Positions 5,604 through 34,964 of a stretch of DNA of 64,000 nucleotides are shown here, one piece after another (positions within the stretch are counted from its first letter, which is position 1; each line of letters begins with the position of its first letter). The stretch covers positions 2,505-66,504 of the forward strand of contig JAFNFQ010000026.1 in assembly GCA_017885655.1 (NCBI GenBank), in the 5' to 3' direction. Position numbers and translations under genes: made by a program. The notes beneath the pieces are model-generated. The model was not told where the DNA came from, ran no database searches, and saw nothing but the letters and a program-made list of their open reading frames with translations. This stretch comes from Methanobacteriota archaeon. GTDB taxonomy: Archaea; Thermoplasmatota; Thermoplasmata; RBG-16-68-12; JAFNFQ01.

Positions 5604-6412
5604 TTCTCACTTCCATTCTTGGTGCTTTCGGGGGGTGCCTCGCTGGCAACATTCTCCGCGGGCGGAGGCGCTTCTCCTTCCGGAGCAACACCGGCGGGGA
5701 CGCCCACTCCGGCTTGGGAGTAGACGAACACCTTCTCGGCTCCTGACCTTATTCGGAGCCTCGACGCCTGGTCGTCGCTCACCCTCATGAGTGACGTTTG
5801 TTTGAGGGCGTCGAATGCGGCGAGAGCGAAGTTGACCGTGGTCTTGGTATGCCCTCTGGCGAAAGCCCATGCGTCTTTTATGCCCGCAAGTCGCATGATG
5901 CTCTTGGCGACATCGCCGACGGCAATGCCTACGCCCTGGGGTGCCGGCTTGAGGACGACTTCGACAGAACCGGATCTGCCAATGACCTTGAACGGGAACG
6001 AATGGGAGCGGTAGCACCCGCATTCCCAGGACCCACAACCCCTCTTGACCTCGATGATGCTCAGTTTTGCCATGTCGATTGCCTTGCGGATGGCGGGCCC
6101 GACCTCCTTTCCCCTCGCCCTTCCGACCCCGACGAAGCCGTCGCTATTACCCGCGACGCATGTTATGGCGAAGTTGACTCTGCGGCCGGAGTCGGTCATC
6201 CTCTGCACCATGTTGACATCGAGAACCTCATCCTCGATCTCGGGCAGCAATATGTCCACTATCTCGGGCTCGCGGAGGGGCAGTCCGCTCCGGAACGCTT
6301 CGCTCATTGTGGTGATTTCCCCTCTGAAGACCATTTGCCCTAGCTTCGTCTTCGGGACCCACTGGCGGGTTCGGTCTTCTCTTGCTCTCCCAGAGCCTCG
6401 GCCTTGCATCAC
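5600..6412 (-). CDS. rps5: 30S ribosomal protein S5 (uS5) with low-complexity C-terminal tail
   Basis: S5 dsRBD and C-terminal domain motifs (GRRVNFAITCVAGNSDGFVGVGRARGKEV…GIKDAWAFARGHT). Start overlaps L18 stop (ATGA). A/P/E-rich ~50-aa C-terminal extension. Confidence 0.9.
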   Translation of the reverse strand: MMQGRGSGRAREDRTRQWVPKTKLGQMVFRGEITTMSEAFRSGLPLREPEIVDILLPEIEDEVLDVNMVQRMTDSGRRVNFAITCVAGNSDGFVGVGRARGKEVGPAIRKAIDMAKLSIIEVKRGCGSWECGCYRSHSFPFKVIGRSGSVEVVLKPAPQGVGIAVGDVAKSIMRLAGIKDAWAFARGHTKTTVNFALAAFDALKQTSLMRVSDDQASRLRIRSGAEKVFVYSQAGVGVPAGVAPEGEAPPPAENVASEAPPESTKNGSEK

Positions 6413-13686: not shown

Positions 13687-14154
13687 CTATTTTAACGGCA
13701 TGAACTTTGACGATCTGGTCGCACCGACTCCCGGGCCAGAATGCTTGACTGTCTTCCGCGTCATCGCGAACTCTCCGAGATAGTGCCCTATCATCTCCGG
13801 CTTGATCTCCACTTTGACGAATTCCTTGCCGTTGTAGATTGCCACGGTCTTTCCTACGAAGTCAGGCAGGACGGGCACGTCCCTGCAGTGAGTCCGGAGT
13901 GGGTCCTCGCTGGCGCCATCGGATCTGAGCCTTTGAACGAAAATCGCCTGCGCTTCGTCCAGGCCGCGCTTGTAGGTCCTCCTTGCCCTCGAAGGCAACA
14001 GCTGGACTATCTCGTCCAATGTCATCGCCTTCATCTCTTCGAGGGTGTAGCCGCGGTAGGTAAACTCCTTCTTGCGGCGGACTTCGGTGCCCGCTGCCTT
14101 CTTCCTGAGCCTCCTGCGCGCTGCCTTGGCGAAACCGCCCTTCTTCCTGACCAC
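13687..14154 (-). CDS. rps19: 30S ribosomal protein S19 (uS19)
   Basis: [31 protein letters not shown]…[12 protein letters not shown] motif. Confidence 0.9.
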
Positions 14155-14852
14155 TACTTCACCTTCTTCTTCTTCTGCGGTGACAGCCTACCTACCTTGC
14201 GCCCCGGCGGCGCTCCGGACGACACGGTGCTGGGCTTTCCTACATGCTGGTGCGCACCACCACCGTGAGGATGATCCACCGGATTCATCGCCACGCCGCT
14301 GACCTTGAAGTACGCCTTGGCGAGCGATCTGTATGCGAAGAACTTCCTTCCGGCCTTGTAGAACGGCTTGTCACCGCGGCCTGCGCCGGACACGACTCCG
14401 ACTGTCGCCCTGCAGTGCCTATCGAAGTCCTTCATCTGCCCCGAAGGGAGCTGCAGGATCGTCTTCGCGCCCTGGCTGACGATTAGCGCGGTGGTGCCAG
14501 CGGCACGGACCAGTTTCCCTCCATCGCCGGGCTGCATCTCGATGTTGTAGACCAGAGTGCCCTCGGGGATCTCACCCAGGGGCAGCGTGCAGCCTCTCTC
14601 GATGACCGGTTTGCCGGTCGTGACTGTTTGTCCGACCTCGAGGCCGTCGGGTGCGATCAGCATCGTCTTCTTCTCGCCGTAGCGGACAAGCGCGACAGGT
14701 GCGGAACGGCCTGGAGCCTGGATTATGTCTTCCACGACGCCTTCACCCTCGCCCTTGAAGTGCTTGACGGCGCCGAAGTGCCTGTGGCTAGGAGAGCGAT
14801 AGGTCGGCGACGTTCCGCGACCCCTTCTCTGAGTCCTCAGGTTCTTTCCCAT
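14154..14852 (-). CDS. rpl2: 50S ribosomal protein L2 (uL2)
   Basis: 232 aa, …PDGLEVGQ…HPHGGG(A)HQH… conserved uL2 C-terminus. Confidence 0.95.
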
Positions 14853-14860
14853 GGCCTCAC

Positions 14861-15151
14861 CTAGAACACTCCTATTCTCATGCCGATGTCCTCGGCGGAG
14901 AATTCCGGCTTCAACTTGATGATCGCGTGCTTCCCGTCCTTTCTGATGAACGTGTGCACGCTGTCCACCTTGACTTCGAACATCTGCTCGAATGCCTTCT
15001 TGACGTCGTACTTCGTCGCCGTCCTCTTGACGATGAACTCGATCCTGTTGCCATCCTTCAGGTCCTGAGTCGGAGTGCCCGAGAGCATGTTCAGGGACTT
15101 CTCCGTCACATATGGATGCATCAATATCTCGTGCGGGTCCGTGATCACCAC
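14861..15151 (-). CDS. rpl23: 50S ribosomal protein L23 (uL23)
   Basis: 96 aa, TEKSLNMLSG…FIVKRTATKYDVKKAFEQMFEVKV. Confidence 0.9.
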   Translation of the reverse strand: MVITDPHEILMHPYVTEKSLNMLSGTPTQDLKDGNRIEFIVKRTATKYDVKKAFEQMFEVKVDSVHTFIRKDGKHAIIKLKPEFSAEDIGMRIGVF

Positions 15152-15999
15152 CCCCTCAGCTTCTCGAAGGCGCCAGCGCTGAAGATTGTCAGCCGGCCGA
15201 CGTCTCCACCTGGAGCCAGGAATTCCGCGTTTAGACCTGATGGCGTGGTCACGTCCACGCCTGGCATATTCCCGAAACCCTTCCGCACTCTGCTCGTGTC
15301 GTTCACGATGAGGAGGAAGCTCTTCGGAGACCTGTAGCGCCTTCCCCGCATCTTGCCTTTGCCGGGGCGGAGTGACGTCTTCTCCTTCGAGCGTGCGACA
15401 TCCTCTGTGACGCCGAGTGAGTCGAGCACCTTGAGCGCATCCTTGGCGGTAGCCGTGTTCTCGATCTCATCCACCGCCACGAGCGGGAGCGTCATTATCG
15501 GGCTGAATTGGTGGCCTCTCCTCCGGACGTTTTCGGCGACGCATATCGCGGACAAAGCCGAGTTGCGGGCCAATGTTCTCTCCTTCTGGTTCATCTTCTT
15601 CGCCCAGATAGTTTCCGGGCGAGGCGGGTGCGCCCTGCGGCCGCCTCTTGTTCCCGGCGCCTGCGCGCCGATCATCGTGCCCCTTATCCTTGGGACTCGG
15701 GAGACGCCCTGTCCTTTCCCGGACCACCGGACTGAGTGCCGCATGCCCGATCTGCTGCCTGGGCCGTACGCCTGACGCCGGTTTGCCCGGGAAGCCGTCA
15801 CTGCGCGCATGACCAGGTCGGGCCTGAATTCCGACATGAAGACGGCGGGCAGCTCAACGGAGTGGTCGACCTTCCCTTCGAGGTCGTAGATGTTGACCGT
15901 GCGAGCTGGCGGTGCCTGAGTCGCCACAATGGGGTGCTTCTTCGCGTGGATTGGTTTCTTCACCACGCGCGTCGCCTCCTTTTTCTCCGCCATCCCCAT
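15145..15999 (-). CDS. rpl4: 50S ribosomal protein L4 (uL4/L1e)
   Basis: 284 aa, conserved uL4 segments, operon position. Confidence 0.9.
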   Translation of the reverse strand: MGMAEKKEATRVVKKPIHAKKHPIVATQAPPARTVNIYDLEGKVDHSVELPAVFMSEFRPDLVMRAVTASRANRRQAYGPGSRSGMRHSVRWSGKGQGVSRVPRIRGTMIGAQAPGTRGGRRAHPPRPETIWAKKMNQKERTLARNSALSAICVAENVRRRGHQFSPIMTLPLVAVDEIENTATAKDALKVLDSLGVTEDVARSKEKTSLRPGKGKMRGRRYRSPKSFLLIVNDTSRVRKGFGNMPGVDVTTPSGLNAEFLAPGGDVGRLTIFSAGAFEKLRGW

Positions 16000-17036
16000 C
16001 AGCCCCCCTGCTTCGATTCTTTTGAAATATAGGTCATTTCAGGCGCCTTCTCTAGTGTGACATGCTTCGCGACCCTCGCGGCGTCTCGAAGGCGAACGAG
16101 CCTCTTCGTCGGCCCAGGTATGGAACCGTGCAGAAGCACGTAGTGATTCCTCACGACGCCGTAGTGCAGGAAGCCGCCGTCGGGCGTGATGTCCGCGCCG
16201 TTATCCCCGATTTTGAGCACGCGCTTGTTATGCTCTGTCCTTTGGTGGTAGCCAACCTGCCCGCCCTGCGGCACTGTTGGTCTGATGTAGCCCGGGTTGA
16301 AATTTCCCCTGGTTCCGATCATCCGCCTGTGCTTGCTGTTCTTGTGCGACAGGAGCTTTACGCCGAATCTCTTGATGAAACCCTGCCAACCTTTGCCCTT
16401 CGTCACCGCAGCGACGTCGAGCATCGCCCCTTCCTTCGTGAAGTCGGTGATCTTGATTTCTTTGCCGAGGAGGTCGACGGCATACTTGAGTCGCGCCTCG
16501 ACGGTACCTCCGCCGATTCGGTTCTCCATGATCTCGGGTTTCTTTTTCGGGATGCCCGTCACTAGGCTGGGCTGAGTGTACATGATGACGCGGACTTCGT
16601 CGATTCTCGAGATGTCGACCTCGACCTCACCGCCCTTAGACTTCTTGTTCTTCGGGATGGGGAAGGCGCGGGCGAGCTCTTTATCGAGCTTGTCTGCCCA
16701 GATTTCCTGCGCGACCTCGTGACCGTTGTGCGTCCTCTCGTACAGCCTGACGGCCGCGACTCTCATGGGCGGCACCTCGATCACGGTGACTGGGACCTGG
16801 ACCTCTTGCCCGGTGGTCGTGCTCGTGGGCCTAAAGTCGACCATCAAGGCGTGCGTCATGCCCGCCTTGTAACCCGCGAACCCCTGGAGTCTTGGCCCGT
16901 CCTGTATCTCGGGCCATCCGGAGAAATGCGGAATCTGGCTTTCGCTCCTCTTCCGCGGCGAGTACGCCATCGAGCCCTTTCGTGGCCTGTGCTCCTTCGG
17001 CATGTTCAGCCTCGAAGATGCCCTCTGCTGGGACAA
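15999..17036 (-). CDS. rpl3: 50S ribosomal protein L3 (uL3)
   Basis: 345 aa, first gene of the cluster. Start may be an internal Met (MPKEHRPRKGS…). Confidence 0.9.
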   Translation of the reverse strand: MSQQRASSRLNMPKEHRPRKGSMAYSPRKRSESQIPHFSGWPEIQDGPRLQGFAGYKAGMTHALMVDFRPTSTTTGQEVQVPVTVIEVPPMRVAAVRLYERTHNGHEVAQEIWADKLDKELARAFPIPKNKKSKGGEVEVDISRIDEVRVIMYTQPSLVTGIPKKKPEIMENRIGGGTVEARLKYAVDLLGKEIKITDFTKEGAMLDVAAVTKGKGWQGFIKRFGVKLLSHKNSKHRRMIGTRGNFNPGYIRPTVPQGGQVGYHQRTEHNKRVLKIGDNGADITPDGGFLHYGVVRNHYVLLHGSIPGPTKRLVRLRDAARVAKHVTLEKAPEMTYISKESKQGG

Positions 17037-17442
17037 GGCCGTCAGAGAGCCTTCTTTTCGCGTCGACCGTGACGCTTCCTACGCCCTAGAAAGGGCTAGG
17101 CGTGTTGTTGGGTTCCGTGAGGGATAACCCACTCACGTCTGGTTCGACGCTGTCTGTCGTCAAAACATGCGGCCGTATTTAACGCTTGCTATCTGCAGAC
17201 CCCCGTCATCATGGGGCGTGGCTGCTGGCCGAAGGCAATCAGAAAGGCTGTTGCGGCGAACGGATTTTGCAGACTGGAGCCTTCTCATCTCGCCATGACT
17301 AGAGCCCGAGCTTGGGCTCCGGCGCAGACAACGTTGCGCATTTGATGTTCACGTCGTAGCCACCAAATACAGGAAACGCCTTGCCTTCTTCCGGCCACGC
17401 CGGCAGGTGTAAGCCCTGGAATTCATCGCGGCTCTGCTGATT
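17037..17442. promoter_or_regulatory. divergent intergenic region (r-protein operon promoter on minus; antiporter promoter on plus); TATA-like GTTAAATA on minus near 17174-17181, two GC hairpins
   Basis: No coding potential consistent with neighbours. AT-richer patches with TTTAAC/TTAAATA. Hairpins GAGCCC-gagctt-GGGCTC (~17303-17320) and GCCCTAG-aaa-GGGCTAGG. Confidence 0.3.
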
Positions 17443-18630
17443 GTGCTTGTCACCGCTCTTGCACTCGGTGAAGGATTCCGCCGCCTTGGTCACGCCCCGC
17501 TCATCGGCGAAGTTCTCGCCGGTCTCATCCTCGGTCCGAGCCTTCTCGCATTGGTAGATACGAACCCTGCAACGAGCGCGGGGGCCGGGCTCGGGACCGT
17601 GGCGACGCTCGGTGTCTTTTTCGTCGTCCTGGCGGCGGGAATCGAGGTCGGTCGTAGCGGATTGCGACAGGCCGTGCGGGAGGGAACCGCAATCGTCGCC
17701 GTGGTCGAGTTCATCTTCCCATTCTACCTGGGGACGCTCCTTGCCCAAGCGCTCCGCCTCGATCCGCTCCCTTCGTTACTTCTCGCAACCGGCATGGCCG
17801 TGACGGCGCTTCCCGTGAGCGTCCGGATATTGATCGACTTTGACCTCCTCCAGACACGTCTAGGCCGCGCGATTATCTCAGTGGCCGTCGTGAACGACAT
17901 AATCGCTTTCGCCATGCTGGGCGTGATCCTGACTCTCCAAGGTACGACGACCGGGGGGGACCTGTTTGGCGGCGTCGCGCTCGGTGTGGGGAAGATCCTC
18001 CTATTCGTCCTGCTCGTCTCGATTATCGGATGGCTTTTCCTTCTGAAACGCGCAGACGGGCGGCCGCATCTGGCAGCGTTCACTGCGAAGTTGAGGCGAC
18101 CGGAGGCCGCGTTCGGCATCGCCGTCGCTCTCGCGCTGGGAATGGGCGCGCTGGCGGAGATGCTCGGCATACACTTCGTGGTCGGCGTGTTTTATGCGGG
18201 GGTCTTTCTCACCTCGGAGGCGGTCGGGGTGTCTCAGTTCGCCCTCGTCCGCAACACGACTCAAAGCGTTGGACTCGGTTTCCTAGCGCCCGTTTTCTTT
18301 GCGTATGTGGGTCTCCGCATATCGATAACGCAGGTAGATTGGCTCCTGGTGGCGGTGGTGACCGCCGTCGCTTTCCTGGGCAAGATCATCGGGGGAGCGA
18401 TTGGCGGGTACGCTGCGGGATTCAGGGGTCGCGAGCTAGCCGCACTCGGAGTCGGTTTGAACGCGCGCGGCATGATGGAACTCCTGCTGGCTGACATAGG
18501 TCTCCAGGCCGGAATCATCACCCAGAGCCTGTACGCCGCAATCGTTTTCATGACGCTGGTGACCACTGTGTGCGCGCCGATTCTGCTGAAGCTCCTGACC
18601 AAGGGCCCGAACGCGAACTTGACTATATGA
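17443..18630 (+). CDS. monovalent cation:proton antiporter, CPA2/Kef-NhaP type (membrane domain only)
   Basis: 395 aa, ~12 TM, family signatures (EVLAGLILGPS, AVVNDIIA, GLELS-like segments). GTG start is the first start after the in-frame stop at 17410. No C-terminal KTN/TrkA domain. Confidence 0.8.
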   Translation: MLVTALALGEGFRRLGHAPLIGEVLAGLILGPSLLALVDTNPATSAGAGLGTVATLGVFFVVLAAGIEVGRSGLRQAVREGTAIVAVVEFIFPFYLGTLLAQALRLDPLPSLLLATGMAVTALPVSVRILIDFDLLQTRLGRAIISVAVVNDIIAFAMLGVILTLQGTTTGGDLFGGVALGVGKILLFVLLVSIIGWLFLLKRADGRPHLAAFTAKLRRPEAAFGIAVALALGMGALAEMLGIHFVVGVFYAGVFLTSEAVGVSQFALVRNTTQSVGLGFLAPVFFAYVGLRISITQVDWLLVAVVTAVAFLGKIIGGAIGGYAAGFRGRELAALGVGLNARGMMELLLADIGLQAGIITQSLYAAIVFMTLVTTVCAPILLKLLTKGPNANLTI

Positions 18631-18705
18631 CCCCGGATCTGTGCGCGACAATTCTACGAGCGCGGGAAGTCCCCCCTTTCTTGAGACACCTCAGAGACGG
18701 CGCCA

Positions 18706-19719
18706 CTAGTCCCTGAGCTCCTTGCGGAGCCACGGAGCTTGCTTCTCCCCTCCTCTGAAGCCCAGCTCCCTCATGGCGGGCAGGAAATGCTTCGGAACGA
18801 AGACCCTCAGCAGCCCCGCACCCAGTCTCTCCGCTGTGGCGGCGGCGCATTTCACGATTGTCTGGACCGAATCGGTCCTTCTTGCCTCGGCTGAACCGGA
18901 CCACACGTCAATCTCGGTGACAGTCTCCGCGAAGAAGTCGCATCTCGATGCGAGGAGTAGGAATCCCAGTTGAAGCTGGTCGACCTTGACACGGACCAGC
19001 AGGTGCTTGTTGTGGCGGTCAACGCCCGCAATCTTGAACGGGGGCCAAGCGGCCAGGGCAATCTCGAACCTGAGTTGCGGCGGCTCTCTGTGGTTCCATG
19101 CTTGGAGGAAGCCGGTTATCCTGTAGTCCTCCGCCACCGGCGTCACCTTGAAATCGACATCGGGTTCCTCCATCTCTCTTAGGTCGATCTCGCACTCTCT
19201 CGTGTCCCAGAGTTCCTTGAATCCTAGGCGCCTGAAATCCAGCGAATCCCCGCCATGCTTCGAACCCACGTCCAAATTCTTGATGCTCATCTTCCTGCAG
19301 CGTTCCTCACTCTTCTCCAAGAGCAGTCTCTCGACGGACTCCTTCCCCGCGTCCTTGCTCGCCATCAGCATTTCCAGGGCGGCATATTTCTTGAACGGCG
19401 GTCCTTCATCGGCGAGCCAGAGCTCACACTCGCCCACAACCTTCCTGCCCTCCTCCGCCACCATTATCGGGAAGCCCCTCGTGATGTACTCGTGGATGTG
19501 GCGCCTGCACAGGCTGTCGTCCATCCAGTCTCCGCCATGCAGGAGCCGCTGGAACGGAGTCAGGTCCTCATAGCTGCACGGGCTGTCGCGTGTGATCGGA
19601 TTGCGGAACCAAGACCCGAATGGGTTCTCCGCGACGTGCAGCTTCACTATGGCGGTCGCGTCGTTGACGGTGGCGCTTCGGACTTGCAAGTCGCCCTCTT
19701 CTGCGGTGCATGCCCTCAT
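18706..19719 (-). CDS. GNAT-family acetyltransferase-like protein (duplicated/degenerate second half), hypothetical
   Basis: N-terminal GNAT beta1 (VRSATVNDATAIVKLHVAE), beta4 (IMVAEEGRKVVGECELWL) and FRRLGF-like motif. 337 aa. Confidence 0.45.
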   Translation of the reverse strand: MRACTAEEGDLQVRSATVNDATAIVKLHVAENPFGSWFRNPITRDSPCSYEDLTPFQRLLHGGDWMDDSLCRRHIHEYITRGFPIMVAEEGRKVVGECELWLADEGPPFKKYAALEMLMASKDAGKESVERLLLEKSEERCRKMSIKNLDVGSKHGGDSLDFRRLGFKELWDTRECEIDLREMEEPDVDFKVTPVAEDYRITGFLQAWNHREPPQLRFEIALAAWPPFKIAGVDRHNKHLLVRVKVDQLQLGFLLLASRCDFFAETVTEIDVWSGSAEARRTDSVQTIVKCAAATAERLGAGLLRVFVPKHFLPAMRELGFRGGEKQAPWLRKELRD

Positions 19720-19833
19720 GCTCTACAAATAAGTAATGAAGCAGGGGGTTCAACCTGGACGCTTGCATGTTCCGCAATGCATCCCCTCGCCCGCTGGATG
19801 GAGAGTATCGGGTGTGGTAACGTCGTGGAAACG

Positions 19834-19842
19834 TTTATATTA
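19834..19842 (+). promoter_or_regulatory. TATA box (TTTATATTA) for GTPase paralog 1
   Basis: AT-rich octamer ~40 nt upstream of ATG 19881 in otherwise GC-rich DNA. Confidence 0.4.
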
Positions 19843-19880
19843 AAACCTCTGGCTACTGAATAGCAAGGCCGGGGTTATCA

Positions 19881-20444
19881 ATGGACTCCAAGCGAATGAA
19901 GATGAAAATCTGTCTCGTCGGGGAGGCGGCGGTGGGAAAAACAAGCCTCATTCGGCGCTTCGTCCTGGATGATTTTGACGACAAGTACATTCAGACTCTG
20001 GGTACGAAGGTTTCGAAGAAGGAACTCAAGACGAACCACCCCGACCTGGACCTCGAGCTGAAGGTCGACATGACCATATGGGACATCATGGGACAGAAGG
20101 GATTCCGCGAACTGCTCAAAGAGGCGTATTTCTACGGAGCCAAGGGCATAGTCGCCGTCTGCGACTCGACGCGAAGGAGCACGCTCGACGACTTGGACGA
20201 CTGGATCGAAGGGGTCTACAGCGTGACAGGTAAGATCCCGATCGTCTTCATAGCGAACAAGTGCGACATAAGGGAGAAGATGGAGTTCGCCGAGGCCGAG
20301 ATGGTCCAGGCCACGAAGGCCTACGACTCGCCTTTCTATTTCTCCAGCGCGAAGACCGGGGAGAACGTGGAGACGGCGTTCCAATCCCTCGCCGAGCGGG
20401 TGGCCAAAGAGCGCTTGGCCAGGCGTGAACCAGTCGAGGAATAG
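19881..20444 (+). CDS. Ras/Rab-like small GTPase, paralog 1
   Basis: G1 GEAAVGKTS, switch-I Thr (TLGTKV), G3 WDIMGQ (DxxGQ), G4 NKCD, G5 SSAKTG. 187 aa. Confidence 0.8.
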   Translation: MDSKRMKMKICLVGEAAVGKTSLIRRFVLDDFDDKYIQTLGTKVSKKELKTNHPDLDLELKVDMTIWDIMGQKGFRELLKEAYFYGAKGIVAVCDSTRRSTLDDLDDWIEGVYSVTGKIPIVFIANKCDIREKMEFAEAEMVQATKAYDSPFYFSSAKTGENVETAFQSLAERVAKERLARREPVEE

Positions 20445-20984
20445 CCCTCTTGCGTCGGAGATGAACCGGCGGGCTGTCTTTTTCTCAATGAATGATCAGC
20501 CATGCCTTTGCGGAAAGATGCTGCCGCAGTAGGGGCACAGCAGTGCATCTGCCGGGGCGCGGCGGCCACATGCCGGACAGGTCGCATTCTCGACATCTTT
20601 GCCGCCGTGGACGCGACAAACACAATGATGGCGAGTATCATCCCGAGGAACATTGGCATCGGATTGAATGTCGGCGGCGAATGGTTCCAGTCAAAGGCTG
20701 GGAGGATCGAGATGGCGATGATGAAGAGCATCAGGGTGAGCAGCATCGACCCCTCTTGCCTATTCATTGCGGATGAATCAGACACCTCTTGTGGATTTGG
20801 CTTTCCCAGCATGGCCCGCACCCAAAGCACAATTGAACACGACCGATGAGTAGTGTTCGCTTGGCCATCGGTAGCACGGAGATGCCCGCCCAGAGACTAG
20901 ACCCCATTCACCCCTGTCATTCTCTGGTATTCGAATTGATACGCGTAATCAAGCGTGAGAAGCAGATTTGATACGTGCAGAGGA

Positions 20985-20993
20985 GTTTATAAC
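20985..20993 (+). promoter_or_regulatory. TATA box (GTTTATAAC) for GTPase paralog 2
   Basis: 27-35 nt upstream of ATG 21020. Implies a leaderless or short-leader mRNA. Confidence 0.4.
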
Positions 20994-21019
20994 ATCACGG
21001 GACTCATTTCGTATTCTTC

Positions 21020-21583
21020 ATGCAGACTGAGACTCTTCTCACACAGAAGCATGTGAAGGCGAAGCTGTGCCTCGTCGGCGAGACCGGCGTTGGCAAGACA
21101 TCGTTGATCCGGAGGTTCGTGACGGACAGATTCGATGACAGGTACATCGCGACGGTCGGCACGAAGATCACGAAGAAAAGCGCGGATGTCTTGTGGCGTG
21201 ACGAACCGAGGACGCTCGACATGACGATCTGGGACATCATGGGCGAGAAAGGTTTTCGTACACTACTCAAGGAGGCGTACTTCCACGGTTCTCAGGGCAT
21301 CATCGCGGTCTGCGACCTCACCAGGCCGGACACGCTCTTCGACCTGAGCGGATGGGTGAACATTGCGGTCAAGCAGGTCGGAGAGGTGCCGTTCGTTTTC
21401 CTGGGGAACAAGACTGACCTGTCCAAGGAGAAGCTCGTGGACGAGGAGGATCTTGCGAAGCTGTCCGCGATCCACAAGTCCCCCTACTACCTCACGAGCG
21501 CAAAGACCGGCGAGAACATCGATCACGCGTTCAAGTCGATATCGAAGGCGATAGTCGCGGCATATTCGGACGAGACTGGCTGA
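21020..21583 (+). CDS. Ras/Rab-like small GTPase, paralog 2
   Basis: GETGVGKTS, TVGTKI, WDIMGEKG (Gln of DxxGQ replaced by Glu), NKTD, TSAKTG. 187 aa. Confidence 0.8.
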   Translation: MQTETLLTQKHVKAKLCLVGETGVGKTSLIRRFVTDRFDDRYIATVGTKITKKSADVLWRDEPRTLDMTIWDIMGEKGFRTLLKEAYFHGSQGIIAVCDLTRPDTLFDLSGWVNIAVKQVGEVPFVFLGNKTDLSKEKLVDEEDLAKLSAIHKSPYYLTSAKTGENIDHAFKSISKAIVAAYSDETG

Positions 21584-21615
21584 GGATATCACTTGAGATA
21601 ACCACGAAGTAACTG

Positions 21616-21624
21616 CTTTATAAT
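21616..21624 (+). promoter_or_regulatory. TATA box (CTTTATAAT) for GTPase paralog 3
   Basis: 23-31 nt upstream of the 21647 start. Confidence 0.4.
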
Positions 21625-21646
21625 CGCGGGAACGTGGATTTCCTCG

Positions 21647-22213
21647 ATGTCGACAGTTGGAGCGGTCACCGCAACTAAGCAGAGGATGAAGGTCAAGATC
21701 TGTCTGGTCGGAGAGGGGGCGGTGGGCAAGACCTGCCTCATCCGCCGCTTCATCCACGATCAGTTCGACGACAAGTACATCTCGACTTTGGGGGCGAAGG
21801 TCTCCAAGAAGGAGATCAGTATGCCCGACCCCAGGGGCGGGCCAGACCTCGAGATAGACATGACAGTCTGGGACATCATGGGAGAGAAAGGCTTCCGTGA
21901 GCTGCTCAAAGAAGCATATTTCCATGGAGCGCAGGGCATCCTGGCGCTGTGCGATGTCACACGCAAGGACACGCTGCTGGAGCTGCCCGAGTGGGTCAAC
22001 GCGGTGAACAAGGTTGCCGGCGCGGTCCCGATGACGCTGCTGGCAAACAAGGTCGACCTTGTCAACCAGCGCGTCATCACCGACGAGGAGATCACGAAGG
22101 TGGCCGAAAGCTACAAGGCGCCCTGGATGAAGACGAGCGCCAAGACAGGCGAGAACGTAGAGTCCGGGTTCCAGAAGCTCGCGTGGCTCATCGCGAACAA
22201 GACTCTCCAGTGA
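21647..22213 (+). CDS. Ras/Rab-like small GTPase, paralog 3
   Basis: GEGAVGKTC, TLGAKV, WDIMGEKG, NKVD, TSAKTG. 188 aa. Confidence 0.8.
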   Translation: MSTVGAVTATKQRMKVKICLVGEGAVGKTCLIRRFIHDQFDDKYISTLGAKVSKKEISMPDPRGGPDLEIDMTVWDIMGEKGFRELLKEAYFHGAQGILALCDVTRKDTLLELPEWVNAVNKVAGAVPMTLLANKVDLVNQRVITDEEITKVAESYKAPWMKTSAKTGENVESGFQKLAWLIANKTLQ

Positions 22214-22292
22214 GTCTCCGACGCAATCCTGGTGCTGCAAGCTCTGTCAGCCTGAGCGCTGTACGCGATCGCCAGGCAAATCGACGAGATGC

Positions 22293-23618
22293 CTAGGGAA
22301 TCAGCCTATTCCTGTCCCTTGGGAAAAGCACGGCTTCGCGGATGTTCGGCAGGTCCAGCATTTTTTGCACGAACCTGTCGATGCCGAACCCCCAACCGCC
22401 GTGCGGCGGCATGCCGAACCTGAACGGTTTGAGGTAGAAATCGAAGTTCACGAGGTCCAGTCCGAAAGCCTTCATTCTCTCAACGAGTTTGTCATACCTG
22501 TGCTCCCTCTGCCCGCCAGAGGCCATCTCCATGCCCTTGTACTCCATGTCGAACGAGTTGCTGTACTCCGGGTCGTCTTCCTTCGGCATGACGTAGAACG
22601 CCTTGATTGCTGAGGGATAGTCGCGTATGTAGTACAGCTCGTGACCCTTTTCCTGCATCGCTCTCCCGATGATCTTCTCGCCCTCTGTGTCGATGTCGTC
22701 GCCTTCTTTGACTTTCTTGCCGTACTCTTGCAGGATCCCGATTGCGTCGACATACAGCAGCCGGGGAATCGGGAGGCTCGGGACCTTCGGGTCAAGCCCG
22801 AGGATCTCCAGATGCTCCTTGCCGTGCTCCTTCACGTAAGCAATGCTCCCGACGACGCACTCCTCGAGCATCTTGAGGAAATCCTCCTGATGCCTGATGA
22901 ACGCGACCTCCGCGTCGAAGGAGATGAATTCGGTGATGTGGCGGACGGTGTCGGACGGCTCCGCGCGGAACGCGGGACTTATCTCGAAGACGCGGTCGAA
23001 CCCGGTAGCCATGAGCATCTGCTTGTAGAGCTGCGGGCTCTGAGAGAGGAATGCACGCTTCCCGAAATAGTCGGTCTCGAAGAGTGACGCGCCGCCCTCC
23101 GCGCCCGCGCCGGCGAGCTTGGGCGTGTGGACTTCTACGAAACCATTCGCGTACATGTAGTCCCTGATCGACCTGAGTGCAAGCGAACGGATTGCGAACA
23201 GCGCTCTGTGCTCGGGCTTCCTCAGGTCCATGAACCTGTTGTCCAGGCGGGTGTCGAGCTCCGCACCGACCTTGTCAACGACGCCGAGGGGCAGTGGCGC
23301 CTCCGCGGGACTCAGCACCTCCAGCTTGGCGGGCAGAATCTCGAAGCCATTCCTCGCCTGCTTGTTCGCTACGACTCTTCCAGTTGCGCCGATGACCGAC
23401 TCGCGGTTCACCGCCACGGCCTGTCCAAGAATATCCGGGTCGTCCTTCTTCTTGAATGTGAGCTGGAGAGTCCCCTCTCTCTGCCTCAAAATGATGAACA
23501 CGACCCCGCCCAGATTGCGGATGTCTTCCACCCAGCCCGCCACGCTGACGATTCTTCCATCATCCGAGGGGCTGATGTCCTTGAGTCTCGCGTATGGAGG
23601 CTGCTGTGCGCCTGACAT
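22293..23618 (-). CDS. aspS: aspartyl-tRNA synthetase (archaeal type, class IIb)
   Basis: N-terminal OB anticodon-binding fold, motif 2 (FRAE), motif 3 (GGWGFGIDRF…LFPRDRNRLIP). Start moved to the second Met (23618), because a TATA-like TTTATAGCG sits at 23646-23654 on the minus strand, inside the track ORF's first codons. Confidence 0.9.
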   Translation of the reverse strand: MSGAQQPPYARLKDISPSDDGRIVSVAGWVEDIRNLGGVVFIILRQREGTLQLTFKKKDDPDILGQAVAVNRESVIGATGRVVANKQARNGFEILPAKLEVLSPAEAPLPLGVVDKVGAELDTRLDNRFMDLRKPEHRALFAIRSLALRSIRDYMYANGFVEVHTPKLAGAGAEGGASLFETDYFGKRAFLSQSPQLYKQMLMATGFDRVFEISPAFRAEPSDTVRHITEFISFDAEVAFIRHQEDFLKMLEECVVGSIAYVKEHGKEHLEILGLDPKVPSLPIPRLLYVDAIGILQEYGKKVKEGDDIDTEGEKIIGRAMQEKGHELYYIRDYPSAIKAFYVMPKEDDPEYSNSFDMEYKGMEMASGGQREHRYDKLVERMKAFGLDLVNFDFYLKPFRFGMPPHGGWGFGIDRFVQKMLDLPNIREAVLFPRDRNRLIP

Positions 23619-23722
23619 TGGGTCACGCTGAAAGATTGCCACGCTATAAAGGTGTTTGCGAGGGCCGTGGCTTGCGATTCACTCAGCGGAGTCGGTCGCC
23701 TCCCGCCAATGAGTGCGCATTC

Positions 23723-24913
23723 TCAGATGAGGTCCAGGAACTTCTCGACGAGCTGCGGGTGTCTTTCCTTGATGACTTTCAGGATGCGGTGAATCGAAAG
23801 TTTCTCGACACCTACCTCGGCGAGAGTCCCTATGATCAGGTCGAACTCCTCGTCGGTGAGCGTGACCAGCTTGTTCTTCGCCATCCAGTTGCGGTAGAGG
23901 CCCTCTTCCAGGATCGCCCGCCAGCCTCTCTCATACTTCATGAGCTGGTTTAGCGACCAGTCGCCCGTCCTTGCCGCTTCCCCGAGCACCTCACCGAGGA
24001 TTTTCCCTGCCCTGCAGCCGTTCCCGATTCCACCGCCAGTGATCGGATCGACCAGCCTCGCAGCATCGCCGACGAGGGCGACACCATCCCGCACAGTCTC
24101 GTCTATAGGCGCGCATGTTGAGACCGCGCCTGTGACCATGTCGAGCATCTGCGCCTTCTTCATGCGCGGTTCCTTGGCTATCCATCTGTCCAGGTAACCC
24201 CTGATTTCGTTGGGTTCCTTCAATCTGTCAAGCGAAAGCCCGATGCCCACGTTGGCGGTGCACTCGTCCTTCGGAAAGACCCATATGTACCCGCCAGGCG
24301 CGATGCTCCCGAGGAGGAACTCGCAGTAGTTCGGGAAGTCCTCGTCGGGCTGGATGTTCGTCAGCCTGTATTGCAGTGTAGCGGTGACGTCTTCCGCCTT
24401 GAGGATCGTCTTGATCCCCGCCCACCGTCCTACCTGCGACTCGTAGCCGTCCGCGCCGACAATGACCTTGGCCTTGATGTCCATATTCTCGCTGAGCCGC
24501 CCGACGCGCACGCCCGTCACCTTGCCGTTCTCCTTCAGCAGCCCGAATGCCGTAGTCTTGACCCAGATCTCTGCGCCCGCTTTGGCGGCGTGCTTGGCGA
24601 GCGTCTTGTCGAACATGTCCCTCTCGACGACTATCCCCACCTCATTCCCTGCGTGCCTCTCATCAATCTTGAAGACTTTGCCGCCAGGGGAGATGACCTT
24701 GGCGCCCTTGACCTCGATAGCCACCCATCTCCTGTCATATGGAATATTGCATTCTTCCAGGAAATGTCTCGCGATGCCCTCGCCACACCTGACAGGCGAG
24801 CCTATCTCCTGGCGCTTCTCGATCATCAGGACCGTCGCGCCGCCTTCTGCGGCGTATCTGGCGGTCAGGCTCCCGGCGGGTCCAGCGCCAACAACAACGA
24901 CATCGTATTCCAT
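23723..24913 (-). CDS. geranylgeranyl reductase (digeranylgeranylglycerophospholipid reductase family)
   Basis: Internal ATG 24911-24913, MEYDVVVVGAGPAGSLTARYAA… FAD Rossmann fold, PxVRCGEG motif, 396 aa. The track N-terminal extension overlaps the ferredoxin gene. Confidence 0.9.
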   Translation of the reverse strand: MEYDVVVVGAGPAGSLTARYAAEGGATVLMIEKRQEIGSPVRCGEGIARHFLEECNIPYDRRWVAIEVKGAKVISPGGKVFKIDERHAGNEVGIVVERDMFDKTLAKHAAKAGAEIWVKTTAFGLLKENGKVTGVRVGRLSENMDIKAKVIVGADGYESQVGRWAGIKTILKAEDVTATLQYRLTNIQPDEDFPNYCEFLLGSIAPGGYIWVFPKDECTANVGIGLSLDRLKEPNEIRGYLDRWIAKEPRMKKAQMLDMVTGAVSTCAPIDETVRDGVALVGDAARLVDPITGGGIGNGCRAGKILGEVLGEAARTGDWSLNQLMKYERGWRAILEEGLYRNWMAKNKLVTLTDEEFDLIIGTLAEVGVEKLSIHRILKVIKERHPQLVEKFLDLI

Positions 24914-24917
24914 GTCC

Positions 24918-25151
24918 TCACCTCCGCCTGGACAGCCTGTGCCCCTGCGGGTAGTCGATCGCACCGACCGCGCACACTCGCACACACATGCCGCACTGCG
25001 TGCACTTCTCGTCGAAAGAGAGGAACGTCTCGTAGAGGAAGATCGAGTTCATCGGACATGTGCCGACGCACGCTCCGCAGTGCATGCAGAGAGTGCCTTC
25101 AACGGTCATGCGGCCGCTGTCGTCTCCGCTCGTGTAACCTTTAGGCCTCAT
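24918..25151 (-). CDS. 2x[4Fe-4S] ferredoxin
   Basis: CMHCGACVGTCP and CTQCGMCVRVCAVGA motifs. Probable start at internal Met 25109 (MTVEG…). The track start would overlap the rSAM stop by 11 nt. Confidence 0.75.
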   Translation of the reverse strand: MRPKGYTSGDDSGRMTVEGTLCMHCGACVGTCPMNSIFLYETFLSFDEKCTQCGMCVRVCAVGAIDYPQGHRLSRRR

Positions 25152-26754
25152 GCTTCTTCCTCCATTCCTCGAGGGGAACCGAGAACTTCTTCTCTGTCGA
25201 CTCGCGGAAGACAGGCCCTGTGTTGTACGCGCAGAACGGGATTATCTTGCCATCCGGCGTGGCATAGTGCACGCCGCACCTCTTCACCCGCTCTATGTCG
25301 TAGTTGTAGAGGTCCATGAAGTGCATCGCGCCGACGTACATCGTCGCCCAGGAGAATTCCGATACCCCCTGCTTGTCACCCCTGGTGAGCATCGAGCCGA
25401 GTATCTTCCTCATCTTGACGAGGCTCATCTGGTCGGGCGACTTCGTCTGGTCGAAGTGCCTGCTCAGGATCCTGAAGGCCTTGACCTTCGTGAGGAGCAG
25501 CATCCTCTTGCCCCTCGCCTCCTGCGTCAGGGCCCACAGCTCCTCCATCAGTCCCTCGACGTCGACGAACCTGGTGATCGGCAGGGGGGGCTTCCCCGTC
25601 TGGAGGAAGAAGTACGACGCGAGGCCGCAGCCCGGGTGAGTCGTGAAAGATGTCTTCGGGGTGCCCGCGAAGATCGAGAACAGCTCGGACAGCGGGGACA
25701 CGAACGGCGGCGGGTACCAGTCGTCCTTCGTCAGGTATCCCGTCTGCTTCTCGACGTCGTGAACTAGGTCGCTCAGGGTGTACCTAAGCTTCCTCCGGTC
25801 CTCGTCGGGGATCCTGCCCGAGAGGCTTACAGGTTGGAAGTTGATGCCTTTGATTACATCCCCGTTCTCGATGCCGTATTTGATGATCTCGCCGACCTGG
25901 TCGTCGTTGAACGTCTTGACTATCGTCGGTACGAGGACCACGGAGGGTCGCCTCTCCTTCGGCACCTCTCTCACGTTGGCGATGACCTTCTTCTTGGTAT
26001 CCAGCAGGGCGACACCGCGAGTCTTCTTGTAGTTCTCGTCGCGGAGGCCGTCGAACTGCAGGTAGATGGTGTCCAGCCCCGCCTTCGAGGCATCGTCCAG
26101 GAACTTCGGTTCGTTGGCCATCCTGATCCCGTTCGTGGCGACCTGGATCTGCGTGAATCCGAGCCTGTTGGCTTCTCTGAGCACATCGTGAAACCTTGGA
26201 TAGATAGTCGGCTCGCCGCCTGACAGCTGTATCGCGTTGACGGGGATAGGCCTCTGCTCCTTAAGCATCTTGAGCTCCCCCGCAATCTGATCGTAGCTCG
26301 GCTCGAAGACGTAACCCGCCGCGTTCGCGTTCGCGAAGCACACGGGGCACTTGAGGTTGCATCGGTTGGTGAGATCGATGTTGGCGAGGCAGGTGTTGGT
26401 GTAGTGGAGGTTGCACAGGCCGCAATCTGTCGGGCAGGTCGTCGCGTTGGTGACCTGCGGGTTCTCAATGCCGACGCCGTCGAAGGCCCATTTCTCCGCC
26501 TTGAGGTAGAGCTCGACGTCGGACCACAGGACGTCTTCAAAGTGACCGTGCTCGTCGCAGTCCTTCTTCATCATCAGCGCGCCCTTGTCCGCGTAGATCG
26601 TGGCGGGAATGATCTTGACGCACTCGGGGCAGAGCGATTCCGTCTGCCGGGGCAACCCCTTCTCGAGCTTCGAGGGCGTGGTGACCATGCCCTCGTCCCG
26701 CGACTCCTCGTAGACTTTTTTCAGCACAGTCCCGTTAGCACCGCACAGAGCCAT
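25141..26754 (-). CDS. radical SAM enzyme, 537 aa, with N-terminal Cys/His zinc-ribbon-like region and two tandem Cx3Cx2C motifs; candidate lipid-modifying (Tes/GDGT-MAS-like) enzyme
   Basis: CNLKCPVC radical-SAM triad is preceded by CPTDCGLC. N-terminal CPEC…CDEHGH. First gene of a tight operon with ferredoxin and GGR. Family assignment is inference. Confidence 0.8.
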   Translation of the reverse strand: MALCGANGTVLKKVYEESRDEGMVTTPSKLEKGLPRQTESLCPECVKIIPATIYADKGALMMKKDCDEHGHFEDVLWSDVELYLKAEKWAFDGVGIENPQVTNATTCPTDCGLCNLHYTNTCLANIDLTNRCNLKCPVCFANANAAGYVFEPSYDQIAGELKMLKEQRPIPVNAIQLSGGEPTIYPRFHDVLREANRLGFTQIQVATNGIRMANEPKFLDDASKAGLDTIYLQFDGLRDENYKKTRGVALLDTKKKVIANVREVPKERRPSVVLVPTIVKTFNDDQVGEIIKYGIENGDVIKGINFQPVSLSGRIPDEDRRKLRYTLSDLVHDVEKQTGYLTKDDWYPPPFVSPLSELFSIFAGTPKTSFTTHPGCGLASYFFLQTGKPPLPITRFVDVEGLMEELWALTQEARGKRMLLLTKVKAFRILSRHFDQTKSPDQMSLVKMRKILGSMLTRGDKQGVSEFSWATMYVGAMHFMDLYNYDIERVKRCGVHYATPDGKIIPFCAYNTGPVFRESTEKKFSVPLEEWRKKHEA

Positions 26755-34883: not shown

Positions 34884-34964
34884 GCCGCAGGGCCAACATC
34901 AAACTTTCGACGGCGCGAACCATACATGATGCCGGCGTCGCCGTGGAGTCGGGTTACCCTTCGA

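What the first reader, a model, noticed from the sequence alone, without database searches (positions are those of the whole stretch)
19740..22213. Three tandem, independently promoted Ras/Rab-like small GTPase paralogs
Three ~187-aa genes (19881-20444, 21020-21583, 21647-22213) carry complete G1-G5 motifs. These include the eukaryote-like switch-II DxxGQ (WDIMGQ in paralog 1, WDIMGE in 2 and 3), NKxD and SAK. Each has its own TATA box 25-40 nt upstream. No MglB/roadblock, GAP or GEF gene is adjacent. The 575-bp spacer after paralog 1 holds two conflicting small ORFs: a 2-TM peptide on the minus strand and a Cys-rich peptide on the plus strand. Multi-copy Ras-family GTPases are uncommon outside Asgard and a few euryarchaea. 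The Q-to-E change at the catalytic position in two copies suggests functional divergence, for example GTP-locked regulators.
Basis: partly seen in the sequence, partly recalled or inferred. Interest (0 to 1): 0.7.

Follow-up and report, generated by a model that had tools for sequence, protein, structure and literature searches.

The report
Co-regulated Rab-like GTPase trio in Thermoplasmata
Three neighbouring genes for Rab-like molecular switches in an uncultured Thermoplasmata archaeon are an ancient gene array kept in about 65 related genomes; each gene has its own promoter and a shared control site, and relatives are linked to a membrane-anchored longin-like partner domain.

Summary
Three + strand genes (19881-20444, 21020-21583, 21647-22213) encode Ras-superfamily small GTPases with complete G1-G5 motifs. 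Their closest solved relatives are a Thorarchaeota Rab and eukaryotic Rab1/8/18/43.

They are ancient positional paralogs, not recent duplicates. The order Q-E-E(-x) recurs in about 65 Thermoplasmata genomes, ancestrally between the rpl3 ribosomal operon and lonB.

Each gene is its own transcription unit. The only three TTTATAW boxes in the 64 kb sit 23-47 nt upstream of the three start codons. A palindrome, TTATC-N6-GATAAC, precedes the TATA boxes of genes 1 and 3. In 788 kb of related loci, 137 of 150 exact copies lie upstream of these GTPase genes.

"GTP-locked" is not supported: Ras Q61E hydrolyses GTP faster, and Glu is strictly conserved.

The minus-strand spacer ORF derives from the LonB membrane hairpin. 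The plus-strand Cys-rich ORF is its antisense shadow.

Verdict: a real and interesting new variant of a known kind. Its cellular function is inferred, not shown.

The parts
19806..19821 (+). Operator-like palindrome upstream of gene 1: TATC-gggtgt-GGTAAC, one mismatch to TATC-N6-GATAAC
   Evidence: Third-best site in the whole window with a PWM built from related loci. One-mismatch pattern hit. An equivalent site precedes gene 1 in 45 of 68 related arrays.
19834..19845 (+). TATA box of gene 1 (TTTATATTAAAA), 12 nt downstream of the operator
   Evidence: One of only three TTTATAW sites in the 64 kb. The position is conserved in related loci.
19881..20444 (+). Gene 1: Rab-like small GTPase, 187 aa, with catalytic Gln (WDIMGQ)
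   Evidence: Pfam Ras E 2.9e-33. AF2 model pLDDT 79.7, Foldseek top hits Rab1b and Thorarchaeota Rab at TM 0.8-0.88. Orthologs are 66-85% identical across loci. 8 synonymous and 0 non-synonymous differences against the sister strain.
20479..20483 (+). T5 run 35 nt after the gene 1 stop codon; possible archaeal terminator
   Evidence: Read directly from the sequence. The terminator role is inferred only.
20336..20812 (-). Small ORF with a two-helix membrane hairpin (core 20609-20776) derived from the LonB protease. Likely start is ATG 20812; the C-terminal tail is variable.
   Evidence: tblastn of LonB residues 119-176 gives 40% identity, E 4e-11. About 45 related loci match through their lonB genes. 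A 1-bp indel at 20581 against the sister strain changes the tail: 164 aa versus 105 aa. The only database homolog is the near-identical P0126.
20970..20974 (+). Right half-site (GATAC) of the gene 2 operator; the left half was lost at the rearrangement
   Evidence: Comparison with gene 2 promoters of other loci, which read TTATC-N6-GATAC. No full palindrome is found here.
20986..20993 (+). TATA box of gene 2 (TTTATAAC), 34 to 27 nt upstream of the ATG
   Evidence: One of only three TTTATAW sites in the window.
21020..21583 (+). Gene 2: Rab-like small GTPase, 187 aa, Glu at the catalytic position (WDIMGE); the fastest-evolving paralog
   Evidence: Pfam Ras E 5.8e-33. Mean identity within its orthogroup is 66%, against 80% for gene 1 and 75% for gene 3. 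31 synonymous and 13 non-synonymous differences against the sister strain, so still under purifying selection.
21587..21602 (+). Operator upstream of gene 3: TATC-acttga-GATAAC, an exact match
   Evidence: The only exact TATCN6GATAA in the window. Best PWM hit. An equivalent site precedes gene 3 in 45 of 57 related arrays.
21617..21624 (+). TATA box of gene 3 (TTTATAAT), 14 nt downstream of the operator
21647..22213 (+). Gene 3: Rab-like small GTPase, 188 aa (or 175 aa if translation starts at Met14, 21686), Glu at the catalytic position (WDIMGE)
   Evidence: Pfam Ras E 8.1e-38. PDB best hits Rab1a and Thorarchaeota Rab, E 3e-29 and 8e-28. Some database members are called at 175 aa.

Best explanation
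**What it is.** The locus is the local copy of an ancient, conserved tandem array of paralogous small GTPases. They belong to a Thermoplasmata-specific family of the Ras superfamily. The family is Rab-like by best match and falls under the prokaryotic 'Rup/RasL' type in the literature's terms.

**Shown**
- All three proteins keep every nucleotide-binding motif.
- Copy 1 keeps the catalytic Gln and is the most conserved. Copies 2 and 3 carry a fixed Glu.
- The duplications predate the radiation of the clade.
- Each gene has its own consensus TATA box.
- Genes 1 and 3 also have a palindromic site, TTATC-N6-GATAAC, 12-14 nt upstream of the TATA box. Gene 2 keeps only a half-site in this lineage. 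In related genomes this palindrome is almost exclusive to these genes.

**Inferred**
- One dimeric transcription factor, probably an activator given its position upstream of BRE/TATA, switches the paralogs on together. They are made as separate, probably short-leader or leaderless, mRNAs.
- The proteins have no lipid-anchor cysteines, so they are soluble GTP/GDP switches.
- They probably act at the cytoplasmic face of the membrane by docking onto membrane-anchored proteins that carry a longin-like domain.
- That domain is encoded next to sister paralogs in the same species, as the tail of a 1545-aa surface protein. It is also found next to, or fused with, family members elsewhere.
- The Gln copy and the Glu copies would then differ in how, or whether, a partner stimulates hydrolysis.

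The confidence given covers the statement as a whole. The shown part alone I would rate at about 0.85-0.9. The inferred partner and regulator part I would rate at about 0.4.
For: **Identity**
- Pfam Ras E 1e-33 to 1e-38.
- PDB sequence hits led by Thorarchaeota Rab 7ezb and Rab1/8/18.
- AF2 model with Foldseek TM 0.8-0.88 to Rabs.

**Conservation**
- The Q-E-E(-x) order is present in about 65 loci.
- Identity within positional orthogroups is 80/66/75%, against 50-62% between them.
- rpl3 lies upstream in 52 loci and lonB downstream in 59.
- All three genes are under purifying selection against the 96%-identical sister strain.

**Promoters**
- The only three TTTATAW sites in 64 kb are the three promoters.
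- Exact TATC-N6-GATA occurs 150 times in 788 kb. 137 of these lie within 170 nt upstream of a GTPase P-loop, a zone that covers 4.7% of the sequence.
- Spacers of N5 and N7 give 6 and 3 matches.
- The site sits at a fixed distance from the TATA box and shares a consensus.
- Window PWM hits occur only in the array.

**No lipid anchor**
- 214 of 215 family members lack a C-terminal Cys.

**Partner domain**
- The tail domain is conserved after the second-locus pair in L071-L076.
- In L037 it is fused to a Pfam Roadblock domain directly upstream of gene 1.
- A stand-alone TM-plus-domain protein lies 63 bp upstream of a related WDILGQ GTPase.
- P0169 fuses DUF835, this domain (hhalign probability 97%) and a GTPase 55% identical to gene 1.
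Against: - No partner, transcription factor or longin gene lies in the window. The link to the longin-like domain rests on sister paralogs and on other genomes.
- The longin model has only moderate confidence (pLDDT 69.9, five-sequence alignment).
- There are no expression data. Read-through transcription of genes 2 and 3 cannot be excluded, because no T-run follows gene 2.
- The operator copies in related genomes are homologous, so the counts show conservation and not independent events.
- Gene 2 in this lineage has lost half of its operator yet remains under purifying selection. The site may therefore not be essential.
- The cellular process these proteins control is unknown.
Confidence: 0.6

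Rival explanations
1. One reading: the Gln-to-Glu change makes copies 2 and 3 hydrolysis-dead, GTP-locked regulators, while copy 1 cycles normally.
For: Gln is invariant in copy 1. The same position in downstream copies varies across genomes: E, D, N, G or A in the third and fourth genes of some arrays. That pattern suggests the canonical Gln mechanism is not required there.
Against: Ras Q61E has increased, not decreased, intrinsic GTPase activity (PMC2987813 and PMC10515638, both citing earlier kinetics). Glu is conserved at 90% or more in paralog groups A2, A3, B1 and B2, which indicates selection for a carboxylate. All other catalytic and binding motifs are intact.
Confidence: 0.2
2. The three genes form one operon transcribed from the gene 1 promoter. 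The internal AT-rich boxes are incidental.
For: All three genes are on the same strand. Genes 2 and 3 are only 63 nt apart, with no T-run between them. The tandem order is conserved.
Against: The only three TTTATAW motifs in 64 kb fall at promoter distance from the three start codons. Operator plus TATA recurs in front of each gene in dozens of genomes. A 575-bp spacer with a T5 run and an opposite-strand ORF separates genes 1 and 2.
Confidence: 0.1
3. The array works with its conserved neighbours. It would regulate either the membrane protease LonB (downstream in most genomes) or ribosome and translation functions (the divergent rpl3 operon).
For: lonB follows the array in 59 loci and rpl3 precedes it in 52. 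The lonB link persists in the four-gene arrays that lack rpl3.
Against: lonB has its own TATA box and lacks the operator. In the window lineage lonB has been displaced, leaving only a hairpin fragment, yet all three GTPases stay under purifying selection. The proteins are Ras/Rab-like and do not reach the cut-offs for the ribosome-assembly GTPase families Era, Der or EngB.
Confidence: 0.12
4. An MglA/MglB-type polarity module, or a recent lineage-specific gene expansion (the outcome the first reader named as refuting).
For: MglA is the commonest prokaryotic small GTPase (PMC4316618). The genes are tandem paralogs.
Against: The G3 aspartate is present, whereas MglA lacks it (PMC4316618). No MglB or roadblock gene was found in the window. 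The best hits are Rabs. The paralogs are only 49-54% identical and form positional orthogroups across the clade.
Confidence: 0.02

Closest known systems
Asgard Rab-like GTPases (for example Thorarchaeota Rab, PDB 7ezb) and eukaryotic Rab1/Rab8/Rab18
   Same: Best sequence and fold matches: E 4e-26, about 30% identity, TM 0.8-0.88. Shared W-D-x-x-G-Q switch II. Single-domain switch. No prenylation site, as in the archaeal Rab-like proteins (PMC4915359). Genomic links to roadblock or longin proteins, as in Asgard archaea (bioRxiv 10.1101/2020.10.19.343400).
   Different: Found in Thermoplasmata, not Asgard. Only about 11 of 27 RabF-motif residues match (alignment). One extra residue in switch II / helix 2. 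Most paralogs carry Glu in place of the catalytic Gln. Conserved tandem array with a dedicated operator.
Prokaryotic Rup family (Wuichet and Sogaard-Andersen 2014, PMC4316618)
   Same: Prokaryotic Ras-superfamily GTPases that are not MglA and are not coupled to MglB. Multi-copy in some archaea: Rup group 2 has up to six copies per genome.
   Different: Rup group 2 is restricted to Crenarchaeota and no conserved neighbours were found for it. Rup group 1 lacks the catalytic Gln and sits in a different four-gene neighbourhood. The family here has its own signature (CLVGE..VGKT.LIRRF, WDIMG[QE]KGFRELLKEAYF) and its own context.
MglA/MglB (bacterial polarity switch) and the actinobacterial conservon
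   Different: The G3 aspartate is present. There is no adjacent MglB. The partner domain matches longin folds best and is membrane-anchored or part of a giant surface protein.
SR-beta / SR-alpha SRX, and longin-domain GEFs and GAPs (TRAPP, Mon1-Ccz1, folliculin, GATOR1)
   Different: Here the longin-like domain carries the membrane anchor and the GTPase is soluble. There is no sequence-level homology to these eukaryotic proteins (7-14% identity). No biochemical evidence exists.

Membership tests
Ras superfamily small GTPase (Pfam PF00071 / TIGR00231) | G1 P-loop, G2 Thr, G3 DxxG, G4 NKxD and G5 SAK in a roughly 170-190 aa single domain | tested here: met
   All five motifs are present in all three proteins. 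Pfam Ras scores 114-130 bits against a cut-off of 21.6. TIGR00231 scores 58-66 bits against 42.5.
Rab family | RabF1-F5 family motifs (IGVDF, KLQIW, RFRSIT, YYRGA, LVYDIT) | tested here: not met
   From the Rab18 alignment, gene 1 reads LGTKV, DMTIW, GFRELL, YFYGA and AVCDST. About 11 of 27 positions are identical. The motif definitions come from the literature (PMC4915359 and my own knowledge).
Rab family | C-terminal Cys prenylation motif | tested here: not met
   No Cys occurs in the last six residues of 214 of 215 family members, including the three window proteins.
Rab family | Closest solved structures and sequences are Rabs | tested here: met
   All top hits are Rabs or the Thorarchaeota Rab.
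Rab family | Phylogenetic placement inside the Rab clade | not tested
   No tree with reference Rab, Ras, Rho, Ran, RasL and Rup sequences was built.
MglA family | Loss of the conserved G3 aspartate and genomic coupling to MglB | tested here: not met
   The G3 Asp is present (WDIMG). No roadblock gene was found in the window. The criteria come from PMC4316618.
Rup family (prokaryotic non-MglA Ras-like) | Prokaryotic small Ras-like GTPase under 240 aa, not coupled to MglB | tested here: met
   Lengths of 187-188 aa with no adjacent MglB. Assignment to Rup groups 1, 2 or 3 was not tested by phylogeny.
Arf family | Arf-type profile match as the best hit, and an N-terminal amphipathic helix | tested here: not met
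   Pfam Arf at E 1e-12 to 1e-13, against Ras at 1e-33 to 1e-38. The N-terminus is a short basic stretch followed directly by strand 1.
Roco / ROC-COR | Roc domain followed by a COR domain in a multidomain protein | tested here: not met
   The Roc profile matches at E 1e-24 to 1e-28, but the proteins are single-domain and end after the G domain.
Longin domain (for the linked partner domain, outside the window) | β-β-α-β-β-β-α-α fold matching known longin structures | tested here: met
Known anti-phage defence systems (PADLOC) | Match to a defence-system protein model | tested here: not met
   Only P-loop-level hits at E above 1e-3.

The most novel reading that the evidence does not exclude
Thermoplasmata, which are non-Asgard archaea, may possess a dedicated signalling system that resembles eukaryotic ones. 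It would comprise a family of five or more Rab-like GTPase paralogs per genome, most using Glu in place of the catalytic Gln. One transcription factor would co-regulate them through a private operator. They would dock onto membrane-anchored longin-domain proteins, including giant surface proteins and 7TM/DUF835 receptors, to couple events at the cell surface to the cytoplasm. If so, the GTPase-longin partnership regarded as an Asgard and eukaryote hallmark would be older or more widespread than thought.
Probability: 0.3. Interest if true: 0.75.

Novelty: new variant of a known kind. Interest (0 to 1): 0.55.

Why it matters
Small Ras-like GTPases that work with longin or roadblock domains are central to eukaryotic membrane traffic. 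In archaea they have been discussed mainly for Asgard lineages. This locus shows three things:

- A different archaeal class keeps a multi-paralog Rab-like family under strong selection.
- The family has its own promoter architecture and a specific operator.
- Its relatives show repeated genomic and fusion links to a membrane-anchored longin-like domain.

This yields testable material:
- a defined DNA site with which to fish for the regulator;
- natural Gln and Glu variants for testing the catalytic role of that residue;
- a candidate partner domain.

It also corrects the generic database label "small GTP-binding protein".

Tried and rejected
**Rejected or ruled out**
- MglA/MglB module: rejected. 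The G3 Asp is present and there is no roadblock gene in the window.
- Recent duplication: rejected. The paralogs form positional orthogroups.
- Defence system: PADLOC gives nothing.
- ncRNA in the locus: Rfam gives nothing for 19500-22500 at E up to 1.
- tRNAs: none in the window.
- Plus-strand Cys-rich spacer ORFs: no homologs beyond near-identical strains. A 1-bp indel at 20581 in the sister strain shifts their frame. Gene callers disagree on the strand. I treat them as antisense shadows.
- Spacer minus ORF as a widespread stand-alone family: rejected. Only one near-identical cluster exists among 5.8 billion proteins.
- lonB as a member of the same regulon: it has no operator upstream.
- One-mismatch operator hit at 34954, upstream of a giant surface-protein gene: no TATA box follows, so it is treated as chance.
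- Near-palindrome at 21538-21556 inside the gene 2 3' end: not conserved at that distance in other loci, judged from the distance histogram.

**Unproductive**
- A profile search of the tail domain against PDB sequences returned only noise. The fold search was needed.
- Literature searches for Thermoplasmata or Thermoplasmatota small GTPases found only Surkont and Pereira-Leal 2016, which reports a single Rab-like hit in a "Thermoplasmatales archaeon".
- The transcription factor that binds the operator could not be identified.
Full report

Yes. The three + strand ORFs lie exactly where stated: 19881-20444, 21020-21583 and 21647-22213, at 187, 187 and 188 aa. Their alignment shows the following motifs.
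- P-loop: GEAAVGKT / GETGVGKT / GEGAVGKT.
- Switch I: a conserved Thr.
- Switch II: WDIMGQ in gene 1 and WDIMGE in genes 2 and 3.
- G4: NKCD / NKTD / NKVD.
- G5: SAK.

Genes 2 and 3 are 49% and 54% identical to gene 1. Pfam assigns all three to the Ras family (E 3e-33 to 8e-38), with weaker Roc and Arf matches. NCBIfam gives only the generic small_GTP domain, and the ribosome-assembly GTPase models stay far below their cut-offs. An HMM of the family finds no other member in the 64 kb.

**2. Which organism, and how widespread is the array?**

The window is 96% identical to contig JBGPQV010000004.1 of the MAG "Thermoplasmata archaeon OBJ1_062018_150_24" (locus L001). It is therefore a sister strain of that MAG.

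Gene 1 has more than 4,400 detectable homologs in public data. Many are 75-85% identical and labelled only "small GTP-binding protein" or "Rab family GTPase" in Thermoplasmata MAGs. In a library clustered at 50% identity, 341 clusters match at E <= 1e-30 and 10,793 at E <= 1e-10.

A scan of one genome per species returned 77 loci, all from uncultured Thermoplasmata or "Methanomassiliicoccales" MAGs.
- In about 65 of them the same tandem array is present. The first gene always carries WDIMGQ. It is followed by two genes (three in one sub-clade) carrying WDIMGE, or rarely D, N, G or A.
- Mean identity within the positional groups is 80% (gene 1), 66% (gene 2) and 75% (gene 3). Between groups it is 50-62%. 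The duplications are therefore older than the clade.
- The ancestral context is the rpl3 ribosomal operon (divergent, 52 loci), then the array, then lonB (same strand, 59 loci).
- The window lineage is rearranged. A Na+/H+ exchanger gene and a 337-aa gene of unknown function sit between rpl3 and gene 1. An aspartyl-tRNA synthetase gene (PF00152, tRNA-synt_2) replaces lonB.

**3. What the proteins resemble**

The best solved-structure sequence matches are the Thorarchaeota Rab (7ezb, E 4e-26 to 8e-28) and eukaryotic Rab1, Rab8, Rab18, Sec4 and Ypt. An AlphaFold2 model of gene 1 (pLDDT 79.7, pTM 0.81) has the canonical small-GTPase fold. Its top Foldseek hits are Rab1b, Thorarchaeota Rab, Rab43, Rab8 and Rab27 at TM 0.8-0.88.

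Rab membership is nonetheless not met.
- Only about 11 of 27 RabF residues match (alignment).
- There is one extra residue in switch II / helix 2.
- 214 of 215 family members have no C-terminal cysteine.

The G3 aspartate and the lack of an MglB neighbour exclude MglA, using the criteria of PMC4316618. In the literature's terms these are Rup/RasL-type prokaryotic Ras-like GTPases.

Surkont and Pereira-Leal (PMC4915359) reported a single divergent Rab-like protein in a "Thermoplasmatales archaeon". I found no paper that describes the array, its promoters or its partners.

**4. Promoters and a shared operator**

In this 59% G+C window TTTATA occurs five times on both strands and TTTATAW three times. 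All three TTTATAW sites lie upstream of the three GTPase start codons, at 19834, 20986 and 21617.

Aligning the upstream regions of all array genes across loci revealed a palindrome, (T)TATC-N6-GATAA(C), about 12-14 nt upstream of the TATA box.
- Exact TATC-N6-GATA occurs 150 times in 788 kb of related loci.
- 137 of these lie within 170 nt upstream of a GTPase P-loop. That zone is 4.7% of the sequence.
- Several of the remaining 13 precede GTPase genes that my motif filter missed.
- With N5 or N7 spacers there are only 6 and 3 matches.
- The consensus is atTATC-N6-GATAAC-N8-AAcg-TTtataa.

In the window, the PWM hits scoring 12 or more fall at only three places, all inside the array:
- 21585, the gene 3 promoter (exact site, hit on both strands);
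- 21537, a non-conserved near-palindrome in the gene 2 3' end (also hit on both strands);
- 19804, the gene 1 promoter (one mismatch).

Gene 2 keeps only the right half-site (GATAC, 20970-20974). The left half was lost where the spacer was inserted. lonB has its own TATA box and no operator.

I infer that one dimeric regulator binds this site. Its position upstream of BRE/TATA suggests an activator. It would co-regulate separately transcribed paralogs. Because these sites are homologous across genomes, the counts show conservation against a diverged background, not independent origins.

**5. The Gln/Glu difference**

Gln is invariant in gene 1. Glu is conserved at 90% or more in groups A2, A3 and in both genes of a second locus. 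A few third and fourth genes carry D, N, G or A.

Ras Q61E has increased intrinsic GTPase activity (PMC2987813, PMC10515638), and a strictly conserved carboxylate points to a selected role. Functional divergence between the Gln copy and the Glu copies is likely. Its direction is untested.

All three genes are under purifying selection against the sister strain. Synonymous / non-synonymous codon differences are 8/0, 31/13 and 9/3.

**6. A candidate partner, outside the window**

Nothing resembling roadblock, longin, a GAP or a GEF lies in the window. Four observations elsewhere point to a partner domain.

- **Second locus in the sister strain.** Locus L076 carries two more family members, both WDIMGE. 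They are followed by a 1545-aa surface protein with one transmembrane helix and a conserved cytoplasmic tail of about 140 aa. The same arrangement holds in L071-L075, where the tail is 41-46% identical.
- **Fusion to a Roadblock domain.** In L037 the same domain is fused to a bona fide Roadblock/LC7 domain (Pfam E 4e-9). That gene lies directly upstream of gene 1.
- **Stand-alone form.** A 194-aa protein with a membrane anchor plus this domain lies 63 bp upstream of a related WDILGQ GTPase in another lineage.
- **Three-part fusion.** The 698-aa protein P0169 fuses DUF835, this domain (hhalign probability 97%, E 7e-11) and a GTPase 55% identical to gene 1.

These four links make a GTPase-longin partnership the best-supported working model for the family. 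For the three window genes specifically it remains an inference.

**7. The spacer**

The usual gap between genes 1 and 2 is about 62 nt, as in L009 and L015. The 575 bp seen here is specific to this lineage.

The core of the minus-strand ORF (20609-20776) is 40% identical (E 4e-11) to the two-helix membrane insertion of archaeal LonB, including the DW..SPP.F.PM motif. No other part of LonB is detectable in the window. It is therefore a fragment or derivative of the gene that ancestrally followed the array.
- A 1-bp indel at 20581 alters its tail between strains: 164 aa versus 105 aa.
- Its only database relative is the near-identical P0126.
- Whether it is still expressed as a small membrane protein is open.

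The plus-strand Cys-rich ORFs have no support.

**8. Verdict**

What is really there is the local, slightly rearranged copy of an ancient Thermoplasmata array of Rab-like GTPase paralogs. The array has private promoters and a private operator. The family belongs to a wider set that is repeatedly linked to a membrane-anchored longin-like domain.

It is a new variant of a known kind. Gene identity, conservation and cis-elements are shown. The regulator, the partner and the cellular role are inferred.

Noticed in passing
window 20336-20812 (-), core 20609-20776: The small ORF in the spacer encodes a copy of the LonB protease membrane hairpin (40% identity, E 4e-11). lonB itself, which follows the array in 59 related genomes, is absent from the 64 kb window. 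This looks like a relic or co-opted fragment left by a rearrangement.
   Followed up: yes
window 19806-19821 and 21587-21602; related loci L002-L069: A conserved palindrome, TTATC-N6-GATAAC, sits 12-14 nt upstream of the TATA box of almost every gene in the GTPase arrays. 137 of 150 exact copies in 788 kb lie there. The binding factor is unknown.
   Followed up: yes
window, whole 64 kb: TTTATAW occurs only three times on both strands, and all three are the GTPase promoters. Other genes in the window evidently use less canonical TATA boxes.
   Followed up: partly
window 20936-20952: A separate near-perfect palindrome, TTGATACGCGTAATCAA, lies in the spacer about 35 nt upstream of the gene 2 TATA box. 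It is not the array operator and its meaning is unknown.
   Followed up: no
window 21538-21556: A second operator-like near-palindrome, GATATCGAAGGCGATAGTC, lies inside the 3' end of gene 2, 47 nt upstream of the gene 3 operator. It is not conserved at that position in other loci.
   Followed up: partly
window 13881-26441 versus L001: Divergence from the sister strain is mosaic. Gene 1 differs at 1.4% of bases, gene 2 at 8.7% and the geranylgeranyl reductase gene at 8%, with differences clustered in blocks. This suggests recombination between strains.
   Followed up: partly
L076 5351-11326 (sister strain, another contig): A second family locus holds two WDIMGE GTPases followed by a 1545-aa surface protein with one TM helix and a cytoplasmic longin-like tail. 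The second GTPase has no in-frame ATG, GTG or TTG upstream of its P-loop. This may reflect start-codon loss, a rare start codon or a sequencing error.
   Followed up: partly
L037 5033-5896: A 287-aa protein fusing a Roadblock/LC7 domain to the longin-like domain is inserted directly upstream of gene 1 of the array in one genome.
   Followed up: yes
L084 5001-6466; protein P0169: A stand-alone TM-plus-longin-like protein lies next to a 272-aa relative (WDILGQ) that has a C-terminal extension. A 698-aa fusion combines DUF835, the longin-like domain and a GTPase. In L064 a 7TM-DUF835 receptor and a KaiC-like ATPase lie just upstream of the four-gene array.
   Followed up: partly
L009, L015, L002 and L029, about 5700-5870 (-), between rpl3 and gene 1: A short conserved minus-strand ORF of about 55-60 aa begins MCDEYYDAR or MCDETWER. 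It lies between the ribosomal operon and the array in other genomes. It was not looked for in the window.
   Followed up: no
L063 and L064, about 2989-3010: Two overlapping copies of the operator sit between a TATA-like element and the start of a minus-strand 319-aa gene with a DDxxD motif (terpene-synthase-like). This is about 3 kb upstream of the array and may be another regulon member.
   Followed up: no
window 30150-34883 (-) and 35680-40356 (-); 48222-51056 (-): Two adjacent paralogous giant surface proteins of about 1560 aa carry FG-GAP and CARDB domains. A 944-aa protein has a C-terminal KaiC/DUF7504 ATPase domain. None of them carries the longin-like tail.
   Followed up: partly
window 21647 versus 21686: The start of gene 3 is ambiguous. 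ATG 21647 would give a leaderless mRNA, given the TATA box at 21617. Met14 at 21686 matches the conserved N-terminus (MKVKICLVGE). Some database entries are called at 175 aa.
   Followed up: partly
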